Assembly (NCBI GenBank): GCA_903813345.2
Contig: CAIIXF020000001.1
Coordinates: forward strand, 14,322,001 to 14,386,000
From: Owenia fusiformis
Taxonomy: Eukaryota
Direction of reading: 5' to 3'
Length of the DNA stretch: 64,000 bases
Shown here: positions 845 to 54,480 of the stretch, piece by piece
Layout: each line of letters begins with the position of its first letter
Position numbering within the stretch: position 1 is the first letter of the stretch
Program-made: the position numbers and the translations under genes
Notes under the pieces: generated by a model
What the model was told of the DNA's origin: nothing
The model's database searches: none
What the model saw: only the letters and a program-made list of their open reading frames with translations

Positions 845-1998
845 CAATATCACATTTAATCTATTATTAACCTGATATGTAATATCCCCAAATGCCAATA
901 CCAAATATCACATTTTAACCCATTAGAAACCTAATATGCATTGTTGTATCCCCAAATATCAATACTAAATATCACTACTAAATATATACCAAATATCACG
1001 TTTTAATCCATTATAAACCTAATATGCATTGTTATATCCCCATATATCAATACAAATATCACATTTTTAATCTATTACTAACCGGATATACATTTTAATA
1101 TTCCCAAATATCAATACTAAATATCACATTTAACCCATTAGAAACCTAATGTGCATTGTAATATCCCCAAATATCAATACCAAATATCACATTTTAATCC
1201 ATTACTAACCTAGTATGCATTGTTATATCCCCAAATATCAATAACAAATACCACATTTTAATCCATTAGAACCCTAATATACATTGTTGTTTCCCCAAAT
1301 ATCAATACCTAATATCATATTTTAATCCATTATTAACCTAATATGCATTGTAATATCCCCAAATATCAATACTAAATATCACATATTAATCCATTAATAA
1401 CCTGGTATGCATTGTTATATCCCCAAATATCAATACTAAATATCACATATCAATCCATTACTAACCTGATATGCATTGTTATATCCCCAAATATCAATAC
1501 TAAATATCACATATTAATCCATTACTAACCTGGTATGCATTGTTATATCCCCAAATATCAATACTAAATATCACATATTAATCTATTACTAACCTAATAT
1601 GCATTGTTGTATCCCCAAATATCAATAACAAATACCACATTTTAATCCATTACTAACCTAATATGCATTGTAATATCCCCAAATATCAATACTAAATATC
1701 ACATATTAATCCATTACTAACCTGGAATGCATTGTTATATCCCCAAATATCAATACTAAATATCACATATTAATCCATTACTAACCTGGTATGCATTGTT
1801 ATATCCCCAAATATCAATACTAAATATCACATATTAATCCATTACTAACCTGGTATGCATTGTTATATCCCCAAATATCAATACTAAATACCACATTTTA
1901 ATCCATTACTAACCTGATATGCATTGTTATATCCCCAAATATCAATACCAAATATAACATTTTAATCCATTACTAACCTGATATGCATTGTTGTATCC
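845..1998. repeat. 64-bp tandem array (about 18 copies) built from the last 21 nt of the exon, the donor site and 43 nt of intron
   Basis: Unit TAACCTGGTATGCATTGTTATATCCCCAAATATCAATACTAAATATCACATATTAATCCATTAC; TAACCT recurs at 1974, 1910, 1846, 1782, 1718, and so on. Confidence 0.97.
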
Positions 1999-2100
1999 AG
2001 GATGGTCCAAGTCATGGCAGATGGCGGAAGTTATGAGAATTAAGACATCTATATCATCTAAAATTGTTGGCAAATCAAGCAACCATGTCAATCCATACAT
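1978..2100 (-). CDS. PDE9A: PDE9-like exon (123 nt, phase 0-0): MYGLTWLLDLPTILDDIDVLILITSAICHDLDHPGYNNAYQ
   Basis: tatgttgcag|ATGTATGGA...TATCAG|gttagt. Contains the class I PDE signature HDLDHPGYNN. Confidence 0.97.
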
Positions 2101-5100
2101 CTGCAACATATAAATACATGTAAATAAGAAATAAAGCTTGCTGATACTCATCACATCTTTCTGATTTCAAACTAGCAATGGAAATATGGTAAACTGATAA
2201 AGGGCTTGGATCTCTCATATCGGAGATGCGTATCTCATATGTTTCATTAAAGTATAACAATACTTTTCATAATTTGATCTATTCATTTATTATATTTAGA
2301 TGACATTCCTAGTTTGGAGAGTAATGATTATTTTGAGGTATTAATACCGTAAAATTTTGCAAAATATTTTTCTTCGTAAACTCTCACTTCACAAAAATTA
2401 TGTTTCTAAACGAAATTGACCTAGATGAGGACATCAAAAAATTTAATACGGCACTCTGATTGGTCAATCAGGACAAGACTGTGAAAGTCATGGCTACTTG
2501 CACATCAGTAAGAATTAGATTCCAATATCCTTCAGATTTTGAGATAAGTAGAATTAATATTGGATAACAGGGCTTTAGATAAGAATTAACAAAATCCAGG
2601 GCTTCAATGATAGCCATAAAGGATGTCTCAATACAGTCTCTGAGCTACGTCACAACCTTGGAGTGGGACTCTGAATGATTTAAATCTAACACCAATGTGT
2701 CAAGACTGGCCTGCATTCAAATGTTTGAAAAAATACAAAATAATATATTGATTGTAAATTGTTCCTTGGCATAATTAGTGAAATATTTGTATGTCAGCTA
2801 GATGTTAACATAAATATAACATGAAATACATAGCTGTAAAGTGGAACAATACATGTCAATTGGTTGAATCCGTTCTAAGGACACTTACGTGAATAAGACA
2901 ACTTGAGTATACTTTACATCGATAACCTGTTGACATTCTGCGATGCTCAAGTCAAGCCATGCTGATCCTTACACAATTACTCTATCAAGTATTCAGGGAG
3001 GGACCTCCAGAAAAAAATTAGCACTCAACCTTTTCACAATTATTCATACATCAATCACCAAAAGTTGAAGGGGCACTTTGGTGTGATTTTGGAAAGTCTT
3101 TTACAACATGAAGTGACAATTGATGTGCCATACTGAGCTTTTACTCTTATGTCAAGCAAACTTAAGCATATATTGGGGTAAATTTATGTGACCCAATCTT
3201 GCCAATCTTGAAGCACACTTGACATGATTATATGCCAATCTTTTGTCAGTCTCTTGTGACCCCATGTGCAATTATCTCACTAACTCCACTGACCACATAT
3301 GACTGTATAGATCTTGCTCGCGGGCGAAATCATGTACAAAAATGCAGCCCAAATGAGGGAAGGAAGAGTCGGACTCTAGACAAGACTAAATCACTCCACT
3401 TTCTTTCTGATTTTTATAAAATTGGTTACCATGACATTCCCTGTCAAGCAAAGTATAAAAATGTGGATGGAATTGAGAGATTAAGATGGATATCTTAAAT
3501 GATGTAACAAAAATTAATTCAGGGACGTGCATCTAACTAACTTTCCACCAAATAAGTACAACCTAAATCCCCAATATATTCTAAGATAAGATGTCTCGTG
3601 CCTTTCTCCATGAGCCTGATTCAGTATTTCAAGATGTCACATAAGCTTTAGTTCTCTATGAGCCAGATTCAATACTTTTATTTGTAGTAGTCTTGCATTA
3701 AGCTCTTGTACCCAGATTCTCCCAAACATTCTCTGTAACGCATGTAAGGAAGAGAATGGGGGAATGGCCAGGAATGGCTCTACATGGGCTTGATTTAAGA
3801 CCACTGCTTGAAATGTTCTTTTTTTAATTATATACTTATAATGTAAAATGTTAAATTTCTACCCTTAGAAATGAAACATATTCTATTTTGAATAGCAATT
3901 TCTCAATGAAGCGAACAATTTAACATAGGTTTGCATAATTTTGTGTGGGATAAGCAAGATAAGATGTCCTGTAATACTGTACATGCACAAGGCAGTGACA
4001 TATAAAATAAGTAACCATAGATGTTTCTTAGAGATGCTATAAAAGGTTTTAACATTGCATCACAATGTGCGTCATTGAACCGTTTCACTGTTAGTATCAA
4101 TTACAAATTATAATATAAAAGGCAATCTTTTTAGGTAAGCTAAGATTCAAAAAACATTGATCTTCATTCACTCCCTCAGTATGATTTAGACTTTTGTGAG
4201 AACGACAAGATGTTGGAGGTTGGTAAACGTCCTAAATATATTTATTATTTTAGTATGCCTTTCCTCTTGTGCCATATGAATTCAAAGTGCTTTTAAAATA
4301 AATCAGCTGCTTTTCAAAAATTCAATTCAATTCACATATAAAATATTATTAACATTAACATACATTCATATCCTATCTGTGAAATAAGTATTAATTAAGG
4401 AGGGGAGAAAAGTGGTATTCCATAGGACAAAACCCATATCAGTGACCTCAGCATAAAGGGTCACAATCATCGATATCTCACACAAAACAATGAAGATTTA
4501 TATTGACGAATGACTATAAAATTATTGTTGATTTGCTTGGTAATTATCTTGATCAATCTCGATTTGAAAAATGTTTCTCCATAAGTACAAAGACTAACAA
4601 ATTAGGTGGAAATTCTACAGCCATAAAGTACCATAAAACATGAGTGAATCAGGCTATAATTTTCCGAGACTCTATGTATAAAGTGACACAGTACGTCATG
4701 CCTGTCTAACGGATAATTGCACCATGAATGCCAAGCTTAGCTTAACTCTTGCTTAAGCCATGGGAGAATATAGCTAATCCTAAAAGGGATGTTCACTTTT
4801 ATTGATATATGACAATTAGGGTAAAACTATATTTAGACTCACAAGTCTGACGTCATAAGGGTTTAAAGGTATAGACTATACAGATACTATTTTCAACTTT
4901 ACCGGATGTATTTTCGCATCAATCATTATGGATGGGTCATCTCTAAATCTAAATGGGTTAAAACTTAATCTAAATAGATGTGTCAAGATTCAGGAAATAC
5001 TGATTTCCCTATGGTCTTTGTAACTTTATATCCAGAGGCATTAACAGTTAGGTTATTTTTAAAATCTGAACCATAGACTTTTAAGACTTTAGAGAAGACA

Positions 5101-5203
5101 AATTATGACCCGAGACATTGTCTGAGGATTTAGCCAACCCTAAGACAATAACTAAAGGTTGAGATGACAAGACATTTACTGAGGGTTAGGGAAAGGAGAG
5201 TGG

Positions 5204-5414
5204 CCACGAAGCAGTGTTTGGAGTTGTGAAATGGTACTATCTTATACTCACCATTTGTGTGACCATGAAGCAGTGTTTGGAGTTGTGAAATGGTACTATC
5301 TTATACTCACCATTTGTGTGACCATGAAGCAGTGTTTGAAGTTGTGAAATGGTACTATCTTATACTCACCATTTGTGTGACCATGAAGCAGTGTTTGAAG
5401 TTGTGAAATGGTAC
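5204..5414. repeat. 59-bp tandem array (about 3.5 copies) built from the last 45 nt of the exon and 14 nt of intron
   Basis: Unit CCATGAAGCAGTGTTTGAAGTTGTGAAATGGTACTATCTTATACTCACCATTTGTGTGA; donor GT at 5369/5368, 5310/5309 and 5251/5250. Confidence 0.97.
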
Positions 5415-5465
5415 TTGGTTGTAACCTCTGTAAATTTCAAACAGCCATTGTTCTAACACTGAGAT
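5370..5465 (-). CDS. PDE9A: PDE9-like exon (96 nt, phase 0-0): ISVLEQWLFEIYRGYNQVPFHNFKHCFMVTQM
   Basis: ttatttcag|ATCTCAG...CAAATG|gtgagt. PFHNFxHCF motif of class I PDEs, PDE9 form. Not in the ORF track. Confidence 0.95.
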
Positions 5466-8302
5466 CTGAAATAATAAGAATCAATACCATATTCTAATAA
5501 CTTTTAATTGATTAATATAACATACTAGCAAACATTAAATCTAGGCCTGTGAAATTTAGCTTTAACATGACAAAATGTCACCACCTAGTTGCTCACAATA
5601 TTGTTACAGACAATGATCGCCAACTGCCAATCGCCAACCGCCATCACAAAAGATGGAGACCATAACAATATGTCACCACTTTTTTACAAATACATTTGTA
5701 TTATATAAAATTGCACATAGTATAACAACGATTGTAATTAAGTTGATACACTAAAAAGTATGAATCAATTGATTATACCAATCAATGTCAGACACATGGA
5801 CAAACATTATATCACATTTGCACTGATTGTTAATATTGACAGTCAACTTGATCAATAAATTTACATTTATTTTGGCATGATCGGTCAATAGAGACTTAAA
5901 CATTGATATCAAACTGTGGGTTAAACTTGCAGGGAATCTATAGTATGTATATCTATAGTACTATTATATATATTACATGTATGTATATCTAGCTAATGTT
6001 CAGGAAGCAATGTGTGTTGTATGTTGACATTCGGATGTTTCTTCCAATATCTCTGTTAAGTGATGTACTTTTAGAATAGCCAGGAAAGTTGTCCAAATCA
6101 ATTGTTCTTTGGGGCCTTTTACCTAAACATATAGCATCCATGTATCCTGATATTCTTTGAAAAACCTCAGTCTGTAATCATTCCATATAACGTCACCCAT
6201 TGGTGTCATTCTCATGTGTCATTCCCAACTTTATATTAAGATTTAACCACAAAATTACTTTGAATTGTAATACAAGAAAAAAATTGGTGATAAGGATGGC
6301 GCTTGACGCAGCTGTCTGGAGGCAACAAAGTACATGGTTATCTATTACCCAATAATAAGACTGATTATTGAGCCTTGTGTCTTTCGTTGCTTTTATAAAG
6401 AACCTGATTAAGCACCGTAGGAGCACAATGGTGATATCATAATACGGGGATTATATCTTATGACTCTACTGTTAGCAGTACTTGGCCTGGAGAATTGATT
6501 AACTTGAATCAAAAGGCTAGATCTGAATCTAGATGAAGGTCAAACTAAAATTGGTTAAAGTCAAACAGAAATTAGTTAAAGTGCCTGGGAAAATAGACTG
6601 CAAAACAAATTATAAAAGATAAAAAGCAATTTCCTAGTATAGTAGTCATTTAAGTTTAACCCTTCAATTGATTTCCCTCTATGTTTTTAACTAAGTGTTT
6701 ACTAGTTCATGACATGCCATCCAACAATCAGTGATCATTCTAATCCTTAAACAATATCAAACAAAAATAAATTTGCTTCGATTACAGTTATATGTTCTTA
6801 TCACACAATTTCAAGTGCTACGCCACAAGTTTCTCACATTCTGTTTTCAGTGTGGCAGTGGAATCTTTGTAAATGAGCGTAGTTGGTCCTCAGGCTCCGG
6901 AAACAAAAATTGAAGGTATAAAGGTATAATGCATCATTATTGTAGAAATTTTGTTAGATTAACGTGGTTTGAAAAATAAAAGTTAATAAAAGTTATAATG
7001 TAAGAAAAAACAAAACAAAAATGTTTTTTTTAGAAATAGAATAGTTTAAACTGGAATATTGACAAAATAGACTTTGTTACCCCAGTCAAAAGAAAACAAG
7101 TCCCATGCATTAAAGAACATCCAAACTGGATCACTTTCCCAAATCGCAATACGTAGGAACCCATCACCCACTACATGTAGGGTGATCTATTAATTGAAAG
7201 ATTTGTCTAACCTATACTCTAAGACTGTTTCAAATTGTATCCTCTAAAAGTTGAGCCTTGTCACAATTCCTTTAAAATGCTAATAATGAATGCAATTTTT
7301 CTAGTTATATATATTATACAATATGTGTCAAATTTTGCAAAATTAGTTTGGACAAAAAACATCATCATCAGTTGAACTCGGAGCCTGGAGACCGGCTACA
7401 CAATGGTTCCACTTCGACCTGGTATGTTTTGCAACTAGCAAATATTTTTCTATAAATGAACTGAAACGAGGCCATAATGTCTCACAAAGAGTGAATTCGT
7501 GTGAATTAAGCCAGAATAGAGGAAATTGTTCCCAAGATAATAATTGTAATATTGACCGCAAAAAAGTTCCAAGTTCGTCCCAGTATGCATTAAAATTTAA
7601 GAGAAAAGAAAATCGTATTACTAATTGACCTGTGTGTATACCTTTGAACAGTATGACAAATAATGATGATTTTCTTAGCCTCTTAAAGGAGTATGTATTA
7701 TTAAAAACATTGAAATAAATGCGAGGACTGCATTCTGATACTCATAGCATCTCTCTCTGTTGTATCTTCTCCATAAGATGTGGATTACTCGAAAAGAAAT
7801 TTAATGTGAAATAACCTAGTGAACAGCTCTAAAATCTGAATAACCCTTAAGTATATATAAGGTGAATGGATCCCAAATGAGAGTCAATACCATATACATG
7901 TACAGTATATATGACATTTTCAATAAGAGGATTATGAAAGACATAAACCTACAATTGGAAGTTTTCTATTACTATACAGTCAAAACAATCATATTGTATA
8001 AAAGAAAATTTAGATTTTCTTCACATTCAAATAATCTTCAATTCAAAATAAGATTTGGCTTGTCTCACATCTCTGCAAAATTTAATCAGTAAAGGCTGCA
8101 TTTGATCCAAGTTTAAAGGTTCCTTTGTAATCAACCATTGAGCATTGTTTCCCATTGGAATTATTTGGACATCTCTAATTCATATGAGCTTTTTTCTCTA
8201 TTCCCTCGATTCAATGAATATTTACTTGCTGTAGCAACAAAATCTAACACTTAGAATCTCTGATGTTGTAATGAGAAAGGAATCTTAATTAGAAAAGTGA
8301 AT

Positions 8303-8437
8303 ACAAGACATTAACATGTCACAACATGCCATTTTTACAGATGTCACATCATTTGTTAGACCCCAACCACCGAACACCAACTGCCGTCCACAAAAAGAGA
8401 CTATAACAATATGTCACCACTTGTGATGGTGACATAA
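8303..8437 (+). repeat. Representative of a 120-150 bp dispersed repeat (8 copies seen)
   Basis: Consensus GCATTAACATGACAAAATGTCAC...CCACAAAA...GAGACTATAACAATATGTCACCAC..GTGGTGACATAA; copies at about 5559, 8303, 11821, 13640, 22036, 24654, 37097, 60839. Confidence 0.75.
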
Positions 8438-8630
8438 TATCTTAGATCTTCAACTAATAAGATTCAACAGCAATCTTTGAGGAATGTTGATGCATATTTA
8501 AGCACAAACAAAGAGAACAAGCATTTGAAAGTCTCATAAGGCATTTTTTTAATGATTATTCATTCCTTTATTCCTTTGTATTCCTTTGAAGTTGAGAGGC
8601 ATTATACAACTTCTTTATAAACCTACTTAC

Positions 8631-8772
8631 CTCAATATTAAACTTGGCAATAAAGCCCAGATCTATATACATTTGTCGGAGAAGTATCAACATTTCGCTA
8701 TCGTCCCACTGCCAGTTGTCAAATGTAGGCTTCCTGAGATATTGTCGCACTTCGTCAGTTACTTGGACATGT
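8631..8772 (-). CDS. PDE9A: PDE9-like exon (142 nt, phase 2-0), start of catalytic region: HVQVTDEVRQYLRKPTFDNWQWDDSEMLILLRQMYIDLGFIAKFNIE
   Basis: gtgtttcag|ACATGTC...ATTGAG|gtaagt. The LRKPTFD-W-W---EML--L--MY-DLG pattern is characteristic of PDE9. Confidence 0.95.
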
Positions 8773-30071: not shown

Positions 30072-31113
30072 AAAACCAGAACAACGGCAACGCCAAAGCG
30101 TAGCGAATCCCATCGAACAGAAATGGCTGGCATTTTTACAAACGAAGCGCAAATATCATAAAACAACACACCAGAAAGGCCACCATTTTCAAAATGGTTG
30201 CTCACTAGCCAAGTTGTCATCAGGAGAAATAATATGCTTTTAAGTAGCCACCTCTAAAATTTTTGAAAAATCGCACACATGCTTGTTAAATAACACACAT
30301 AAAAATGGTGGCCATTTTTCAAAATGGCCGACTACTCCCTAAAGTTTTATTAGACAATGTGCCATGCTTAAAGTATTCACATATCAATTATGAACAAAAT
30401 CGCTCCACTACTTTTCGAGTTATAGTAAAATACGTTAAAATGGCGGCCATTTTTCAAAATTGTTTTCAAAATGGCCGCCTTCTACCAAAAGTGTCATAGG
30501 ACAGTGTGCCATGCTTATAGTATTCACATACCAAATATGAACAAAATCGCTCGACTACTTTTCGAGTTATTGTAAAATACGTTAAAATGGCGGCCATTTT
30601 GAAAAATGGCCACCTTCTTCCAAAAGTGTCTTTAGACAGTGTGCAATGCTTATAGTATCCACATACCAAATATGAACAAAATCGCTCCATTACTTTTTGA
30701 GTTACAGCAAAAATCGTAAAATGACGAGTAAAGGCCGCCATTTTTCAAGATGGCTGCCATGTGCTTCTTTAATATCTACATTTGTAGCATTATTAACGTC
30801 CTTTATAATTTTTTTACATTTAAAACATATTGCTATTACAGTTTACATATTGCACCTAAATTACTGTAAAATCTTCACTAAAATGGCCGCCATTTTGAAA
30901 TGAGCGGCCATTTTGAAAATCAGCTTTCGAGCAGAACTTCTAACCCCATAGGGTATATGTGTACAAAATATGAACAAAATCTGGCCAACCGTATTTGAGT
31001 TATTGCCCGGACGGACGGACGGACGGACAGACGGACGGACGTACGTACGTACGGACGGACGGACGGACGGAGGCGTTCCCTATATCCCTCCGAACTTCGT
31101 TCGATGGGATAAC
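30072..31113 (+). mobile_element. Helentron-associated-like (HINE/DINE-type) non-autonomous element
   Basis: Internal tandem core repeats of about 135-147 bp with AAAATGGCGGCCATTTT palindromes, (GGAC)n microsatellite at about 31009-31070, terminal hairpin TATCCCTCCGAACTTCGTTCGATGGGATA. Confidence 0.8.
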
Positions 31114-53695: not shown

Positions 53696-54480
53696 ACTAG
53701 AAAAACAGCAACTCCACGGAGTAGCAAATCCCACCGAACAAAACATATTATGCTTATTATAGCTAGTGCAAATGTTGAAATGTTTGTGCACTTTGTGATA
53801 GAAGCATGAAATTTGGCACAAAGTTAGTTTATACCATTGTGAACTAGGCATCATCATATGAAATTTGAACCAAATCCGTTCACTGGTATATGAGTTATCA
53901 AAGATTACGTTTTTTACGAAAATTGGCCGCCATCTTAAAATTCAGCCGCCATCTTGAAAATTATTTGTTGCACAGAGCTACTGTGTCCCTAGGCATAATC
54001 ATATAAAATTTCAACCAAATCTGTTCACTGGTATTTGAGTTATCAAAGATTACGTTTTTTACGAAAAATTGCCGCCATTTTAAAATTATGTGGCCATCTT
54101 GAAAAAATTTTGTCGAACATAGCCACTGTGTCCCTAAGCATCATCATATAAAATTTGAACCAAATCCATTCACTGGTATTTGAGTTATCAAAGATTACAT
54201 ATTTTTACGAAAAATGGCCGCCATTTTGAAATTAAGTGGCCATCTTGAAAATCTCTTTTTGTGCAAAACTCCTTTGTCCCTAGGCATCAGCATATAAAAT
54301 TTGAACCAAATCCGTCAACTTGTATTGGAGTTATCAACTATTACATTTTTTACGAAAAATGGTGGCCATTTTGAATTGAGCGGCCATATTGAAAATTCCT
54401 TCTCGAGCAGAGGTCCTACACTCATAAGGCATAATCCTATAAAATTTGAACCAAATCCGTCAACCGGAACTGATTCGGTT
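53696..54480 (+). mobile_element. Related HINE-like element, 3'-truncated, about 4-5 core repeats of about 145 bp
   Basis: 5' end CAGCAACTCCACGGAGTAGCAAATCCCACCGAACA resembles 30085-30119; TTTGAACCAAATCC recurs at about 53864, 54009, 54153, 54300, 54444. Confidence 0.78.

What the first reader, a model, noticed from the sequence alone, without database searches (positions are those of the whole stretch)
845..5465. Same unusual event at two consecutive exons suggests a mechanism that amplifies exon/donor junctions
Seen: two unrelated sequences, both about 60-bp units (64 and 59), both straddling a 5' splice site, both extending only into the downstream intron and diverging away from the exon. 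Two of seven confident donors are affected and no acceptor is. Inference: either a mutational process targeted to donor junctions (e.g. transcription- or splicing-coupled breaks with slippage repair), or a survival filter in which only arrays leaving the first donor intact are tolerated. Two cases cannot separate these, and I cannot confirm novelty without a literature search.
Basis: inference. Interest (0 to 1): 0.72.

Follow-up and report, generated by a model that had tools for sequence, protein, structure and literature searches.

The report
Splice-junction "mirage" repeats in worm PDE9
Two exon ends of a marine worm's PDE9 gene have been copied head to tail into the introns behind them; this repeat type is known from lancelets, sits on about 2% of sampled exon borders in this worm at both intron ends alike, and is likely a tolerated by-product whose copies were likely swapped in from the other parental chromosome.

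Summary
Both arrays are real (59-bp and 64-bp units over the donors of consecutive exons of Owenia fusiformis PDE9). They are 'mirage' minisatellites, known from amphioxus and human F7; this scan has noted them often in this genome. The donor-targeting idea fails. In 806 introns of 34 other genes, 30 junction arrays split 14 donor : 16 acceptor, with units of 30-260 bp, and the intron-ward polarity is geometrically forced. A survival filter is shown: 0 arrays in 121 kb of exon, about 38 expected. Enrichment over random placement is modest (1.3-2.0-fold) and weakens without one gene. In CCT2, RNA uses the exon-proximal sites; PDE9 reads were too few. One clue was not found in my paper or scan searches: copies differ from their exon at 0.112 of silent sites but 0.016 of replacement sites (ratio 7.2, bootstrap 4.5-12.2; neutral at most about 3). 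Single-copy variants are neutral. The copies therefore look like working alleles, which points to exchange between homologues. A haplotype-mosaic assembly could contribute.

The parts
5370..5465 (-). PDE9 exon A (ISVLEQ...MVTQM); its last 45-46 nt seed array A
   Evidence: Matches Owenia PDE9 models P0004-6; boundaries also recovered with a limpet PDE9 as reference
5200..5415 (-). Array A: 59-bp unit = 45-46 nt exon tail + 13-14 nt intron head; real donor at 5369, identical decoy donors at 5310 and 5251, then a partial exon copy; using the first decoy gives a frameshift and a stop
2101..5369 (-). Intron between the two seeded exons (3269 bp); its acceptor carries no array
1978..2100 (-). PDE9 exon B (MYGL...HDLDHPGYNNAYQ, Pfam PF00233); its last 21 nt seed array B
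845..1998 (-). Array B: 64-bp unit = 21 nt exon tail + 43 nt intron head, about 18 units; real donor at 1977; decoys weaken distally; 12 of 14 aligned copies carry silent TAT for the exon's TAC; using the first decoy gives a frameshift and a stop
8631..8772 (-). Upstream PDE9 exon with no junction array

Best explanation
These are 'mirage' minisatellites: tandem copies of a 30-260 bp piece that straddles an exon border, which survive because the exon-proximal splice site is likely still the one used, and whose copies were likely drawn from, or refreshed by, the other allele. Steps: (1) a tandem duplication forms across a junction, donor or acceptor alike (shown in the sample); (2) duplications inside exons are removed and junction-spanning ones are tolerated (depletion shown, selection inferred); (3) the spliceosome uses the first donor or last acceptor, and most slips would be frameshift or stop products (shown for two CCT2 arrays, inferred for PDE9); (4) unequal exchange expands the array and distal copies decay (inferred; decay shown in array B); (5) exchange between homologues in a polymorphic genome supplies copies that differ from the cis exon like working alleles (signature shown, cause inferred). 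The modest excess at junctions may arise because such exchange starts in conserved exons (speculative).
For: 14 donor: 16 acceptor at 1612 junctions. 0 exon-internal arrays vs about 38 expected. 169 of 170 decoys keep GT/AG. First-decoy use gives a frameshift or stop in 33 of 38 arrays. CCT2 RNA: 294/206/152 reads leave at the first donor, with depth 0-6 over that array vs about 120-250 in flanking exon bins; the real acceptor joint has 210/110/109 reads. Nearest copy vs exon: silent 51/456, replacement 26/1678, ratio 7.2 (4.5-12.2) against a neutral ceiling of 2.0-3.1; 7.5 in the first set (35 arrays), 6.5 in a second set (10 arrays), 7.0 where decoy use is a dead end. Variants in one copy only are neutral (8:28); variants shared by some copies and absent from others are silent-rich (14:15, p 0.002-0.03). 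Intron-head divergence of 6.6% is near a rough allelic divergence of 2.8-4.7% from word sharing plus decay. At two silent CCT2 sites the RNA majority allele equals the copy, not the cis exon.
Against: PDE9 splicing itself was not seen (depth 1.5 or less, no splice joint). Enrichment is not significant with all periods pooled (p=0.09), or pooled without the richest gene (22 vs 20.3, p=0.38). The second set alone does not reach significance under the most generous null (p=0.10). The window's own two arrays show no silent bias: array A 0 silent: 1 replacement, array B 2: 6 distinct variants. The farthest copies give a ratio of only 2.2 (0.8-6.1). At a third CCT2 silent site the reads appear to follow the exon. 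In one search, 158/106/78 reads were placed on a joint at the outer decoy acceptor; I read them as ambiguous placements (longest short side 52-58 nt, inside the copied exon part of about 61 nt), not as proof of zero use. Silent diversity was not measured directly.
Confidence: 0.7

Rival explanations
1. Untargeted intra-chromatid slippage plus the survival filter only; the silent bias comes from later allelic conversion of the real exon or from a haplotype-mosaic assembly consensus.
For: Enrichment is small and fragile; the genome is rich in intronic arrays (183 in the 806 introns). A mosaic consensus would also make an exon differ from its copy at heterozygous, mostly silent sites, and fits the two CCT2 sites equally well.
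Against: Silent-rich variants also separate copies from each other (14:15), and for 9 silent vs 2 replacement majority variants the exon's base is still present in some copy. There is no excess of pairs without a silent difference (9 of 28; 7.0-11.6 expected for random alleles). A mosaic alone would need about twice the observed silent divergence as heterozygosity (inference).
Confidence: 0.22
2. A splicing- or transcription-coupled process targets 5' splice sites and amplifies units of about 60 bp.
For: 2 of 12 PDE9 donors and 0 of 12 acceptors; 3 of the 4 CCT2 arrays are at donors; highly expressed CCT genes seem array-rich (not quantified).
Against: 14:16 donor:acceptor; units 30-260 bp; site strength does not differ from other sites (donor p=0.10, acceptor p=0.97); intronic arrays do not hug junctions (16 vs 14.9 expected).
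Confidence: 0.04
3. The copies are functional (alternative splice sites, a regulated decay switch or a U1 sink) and are under direct selection.
For: Decoy GT/AG intact in 169 of 170; the copies look protein-constrained.
Against: The bias is the same where decoy use is a frameshift or stop (ratio 7.0); single-copy variants are neutral and include stops; no clear decoy use in CCT2; distal donors decay.
Confidence: 0.04

Closest known systems
Amphioxus 'mirage' minisatellites (Adh3, globins BflGb6 and BflGb9, troponin C, PGBD5). Seen: passages of PMC3087553 and PMC3902484. The original Adh3 paper was not held and is known to me only through these passages and recall.
   Same: Unit spans an exon-intron border; both 5' and 3' borders affected; many copies keep GT/AG; regular splicing reported intact; units of 10-160 bp; concerted evolution of inner copies.
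   Different: Here an annelid, with a measured frequency (1.9% of sampled junctions) and a null test. The passages read say the generating mechanism is unclear, and the word 'synonymous' does not occur in the main text of PMC3087553. Its supplements were not opened.
Human F7 intron 7 37-bp VNTR (PMC1557585; abstract and outline only)
   Same: The first unit spans the exon-intron border; identical downstream pseudo-donors stay silent; the most upstream donor is chosen.
   Different: A single human locus tested by mutagenesis; the abstract makes no genome-wide or allelic-origin claim.
Inter-allelic, meiotic mutation of human GC-rich minisatellites (recalled; search returned no paper)
   Same: Repeat units move between homologues.
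   Different: Recalled only and not about splice junctions; here the evidence is a codon-level signature, not direct mutant mapping.

Membership tests
mirage minisatellites | Tandem unit spans an exon-intron border | tested here: met
mirage minisatellites | Copies repeat the splice signal | tested here: met
   169 of 170 decoys keep GT/AG; window copies listed
mirage minisatellites | Both 5' and 3' borders can be copied | tested here: met
   14 donor, 16 acceptor in other genes; only donors in this window
mirage minisatellites | Regular splicing is undisturbed | tested here: inconclusive
   Met for two CCT2 arrays. For PDE9, database gene models use the first donors but reads were too few
mirage minisatellites | Copy number differs between haplotypes | tested here: inconclusive
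   Run X2 holds the CCT2 105-bp unit at raised depth with a variant intron part; no count for the PDE9 arrays
mirage minisatellites | Somatic length instability | not testable with these tools
   needs small-pool PCR or single-molecule reads
F7-type donor VNTR | Pseudo-donors work if the first is lost, but do not compete with it | not testable with these tools
   needs a minigene; proximal decoys score the same as the real donor
   14 vs 16, p=0.86
   median 91 bp; 5 of 30 at 55-69 bp

The most novel reading that the evidence does not exclude
Mirages are scars of recombination between homologues. In a highly polymorphic genome, exchange starts in conserved exons and misaligns where homology drops at the intron, placing a piece of the other allele's exon behind the working one and topping it up repeatedly. 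Introns would then hold an archive of functional exon alleles that can flow back into the gene, and the long-unexplained mirages of lancelets and other polymorphic marine animals would have a testable cause.
Probability: 0.3. Interest if true: 0.62.

Novelty: new member of a known kind. Interest (0 to 1): 0.33.

Why it matters
As a locus it is ordinary: a known repeat class, common in this genome and already noted many times by the scan. What matters is the codon signature. The amphioxus paper calls the origin of mirages unclear. If the copies really carry other alleles, their origin becomes testable with phased reads, and it bears on intron gain, exon duplication and gene-model errors in polymorphic marine invertebrates. 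Such arrays are also natural tests of how a spliceosome chooses among many identical sites.

Tried and rejected
PDE9 read lay: three RNA runs and one DNA run gave too little depth, and the joint table was filled by a high-copy interspersed element; no verdict. No RNA holder was listed on record by the run search; this is not evidence. Kinase set (14 regions, 21 introns): too few confident introns, and one region was chosen because I had already seen a duplicate hit, so the set was left out of all rates. Other PDE genes (6 arrays in 43 introns) are reported apart because I had seen their arrays before fixing the introns; one 20-bp 'donor' call there was a mis-annotated boundary and was dropped. 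The subset at 90% identity or more (25 vs 9.6 expected) was rejected as the headline, because exon-derived copies start more alike than intronic ones. Minimum intron part as a filter signature: donors 1 vs 2.1 expected, acceptors 1 vs 4.2; too few to call. Selection for frame-breaking units: 14 of 38 are multiples of three, so none seen. Haplotig pairs for silent diversity: none usable. Assembly artefact as the source of the arrays themselves: unlikely, since copies carry structured variants and run X2 holds the CCT2 unit. Paper searches: searches returned nothing; some searches gave listings only, with no title or abstract start describing a genome-wide mirage survey; two searches returned only two relevant mirage papers.

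Full report
Locus. The window is G000:C1:14322001-14386000. The minus-strand gene is PDE9: exon 2100-1978 hits PF00233 and is 100% identical to proteins labelled Owenia fusiformis, with PDE9A-labelled relatives next. A spliced aligner I wrote recovered the exon borders from a limpet PDE9 and 12 introns from an Owenia model. Array A (5200-5415) repeats 45-46 nt of exon plus 13-14 nt of intron; array B (about 845-1998) repeats 21 plus 43 nt. The database models use the first donor of each. Use of the first decoy would shift the frame and meet a stop in both.

It is a known kind. I recalled the name 'mirage' and confirmed it in passages of PMC3087553 and PMC3902484: tandem copies of exon-intron borders, at 5' and 3' ends, with normal splicing and an unclear mechanism. 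The abstract of PMC1557585 describes the human F7 case, in which the most upstream of identical donors is chosen. Earlier notes of this scan report many mirages in this genome; they are unchecked notes and are not counted as support.

Enrichment test. I fetched 15 dynein heavy chain and 19 myosin gene regions, chosen by Pfam match and not by repeats, and kept 806 confident introns of 983 candidate calls, a figure that includes alternative calls of the same intron. Thirty arrays span a junction: 14 donors and 16 acceptors, 1.9% of 1612 junctions. A few more lay in introns that were not kept, so the rate may be low. Null: each array's unit placed uniformly over collapsed introns and junctions. 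All periods of 15 bp or more: 30 of 213 vs 23.6 expected (p=0.09). Periods of 30 or more (cut-off chosen after seeing the data): 30 of 112 vs 19.7 (p=0.007). Without arrays that match another gene region: 28 of 89 vs 14.1 (p=1e-4). Without the richest gene these become 22 vs 20.3, 22 vs 16.6 and 20 vs 11.6 (p=0.38, 0.09, 0.007). None of 101 arrays of period 15-29 spans a junction (3.9 expected). Rates differ between genes (p=0.01). No array lies inside 121 kb of exon, where about 38 would be expected; exons broken by a duplication could have escaped my models. Units run from 30 to 260 bp, median 91. So the filter is strong, the excess is small, and nothing is donor-specific. Polarity needs no mechanism: exon-X|I duplicated gives exon-X|I-X|I, and all extra copies are intronic if the first donor is used.

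Splicing. The PDE9 lay failed for depth. CCT2 has four arrays within 10 kb; half of that stretch was laid, leaving two arrays untested. At the 105-bp donor array, 294, 206 and 152 reads leave at the first donor, and depth over the array is 0-6 against about 120-250 in flanking exon bins. At the 96-bp acceptor array the real joint has 210, 110 and 109 reads with sides up to 75 nt. A joint at the outermost decoy has 158, 106 and 78 reads, but its longest short side is 52-58 nt, within the copied exon part of about 61 nt, and depth in that bin (31, 19, 14) fits such short overhangs. I read these as misplaced real-site reads; low-level decoy use is not excluded, and 36 joints were not shown.

The unexpected signal. 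Differences between an exon and its nearest intronic copy fall at codon positions 1, 2 and 3 as 9/535, 8/540 and 44/538. Scored as silent or replacement in 35 of 38 arrays (those under 85% identity dropped): 39/335 vs 19/1217. In a second set (10 informative of 14 tried; one not found, two not usable for frame, one without an alignable exon part): 12/121 vs 7/461 (p=0.10 alone under the most generous null). Together the ratio is 7.2 (bootstrap over arrays 4.5-12.2). A neutral copy beside an exon that changes only silently gives at most 2.0-3.1. The ratio is 13.8 for single extra copies, 10.4 for donors, 6.2 for acceptors, 7.0 where decoy use is a dead end, and only 2.2 for the farthest copies. 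In 15 arrays with 4 or more copies, single-copy variants are neutral (8:28), a built-in control, while variants shared by at least two and absent from at least two copies are 14:15. The window's own arrays are too short in exon part to show it: 0:1 and 2:6 distinct variants, though the silent ones in array B are shared by 12 and 6 of 14 copies.

Reading. A sequence differs from an exon mostly at silent sites if it was itself a working exon until recently, that is, another allele. Word sharing with DNA runs X2 and X3 (0.42, 0.40) implies roughly 2.8-4.7% allelic divergence (a rough figure), and intron heads differ by 6.6%. At two silent CCT2 sites the RNA majority allele matches the copy rather than the cis exon; at a third it appears to match the exon. 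Three routes fit: birth by misaligned exchange between homologues, later allelic conversion of the exon, or a haplotype-mosaic consensus. The lack of excess pairs without a silent difference (9 of 28 vs 7.0-11.6 expected) and the copy-versus-copy bias lean towards real and repeated exchange, but phased reads are needed. My searches for this signal (scan notes; papers; 'synonymous' in PMC3087553) found nothing. The library lacks most subscription papers, including the original Adh3 paper, and no supplements were read.

Verdict. Observation real; donor-targeting not supported; survival filter supported; class already known. The novelty is a new member of a known kind. Interest 0.33, carried by the allelic signature, not by the locus.

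Noticed in passing
P0001, P0002, P0003 (unnamed ENA ORFs): Read-through ORFs from other organisms repeat borders of the same PDE9 exon: P0002 has the exon tail three times in a 16-residue unit across the same donor; P0001 and P0003 repeat other parts. Suggests independent mirages at this exon elsewhere; protein level only.
   Followed up: partly
L291 (G000:C11:132801-142800): CCT2 near a chromosome tip carries four junction arrays (28, 53, 96 and 105-bp units); the 53-bp donor array is split by an insertion of about 0.9 kb.
   Followed up: partly
L225 (G000:C4:24494001-24504000): One 1694-bp myosin intron is almost filled by a donor array (83 bp x7.2) and an acceptor array (91 bp x11.8).
   Followed up: partly
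G000:C1:14311140-14315624 (just beyond the window's left end): PDE9 has two similar versions of the DISNEARPMEVAEPW exon; models P0004 and P0005 include both in tandem. Likely mutually exclusive exons. Similar exon pairs occur in other PDE genes.
   Followed up: no
G000:C9:37986009-37994334: About 12 tandem matches to the same N-terminal myosin head segment; possible cluster of alternative exons.
   Followed up: no
window 5561-5684 and 8397-8439: Short high-copy interspersed element (read depth above 100) ending in a GTCACCAC...GTGGTGAC hairpin; looks like a non-autonomous Helitron-type element (recalled, untested).
   Followed up: no
window 30302-31071 and 53844-54460: Dispersed satellite units of 145-147 bp, the first beside a (CGGA)n run; similar units recur in other fetched regions.
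   Followed up: no
L105-L110 (G000:C4:3070001-3130000): One dynein gene holds 8 of the 30 sampled junction arrays in 44 introns; local rates vary strongly.
   Followed up: yes
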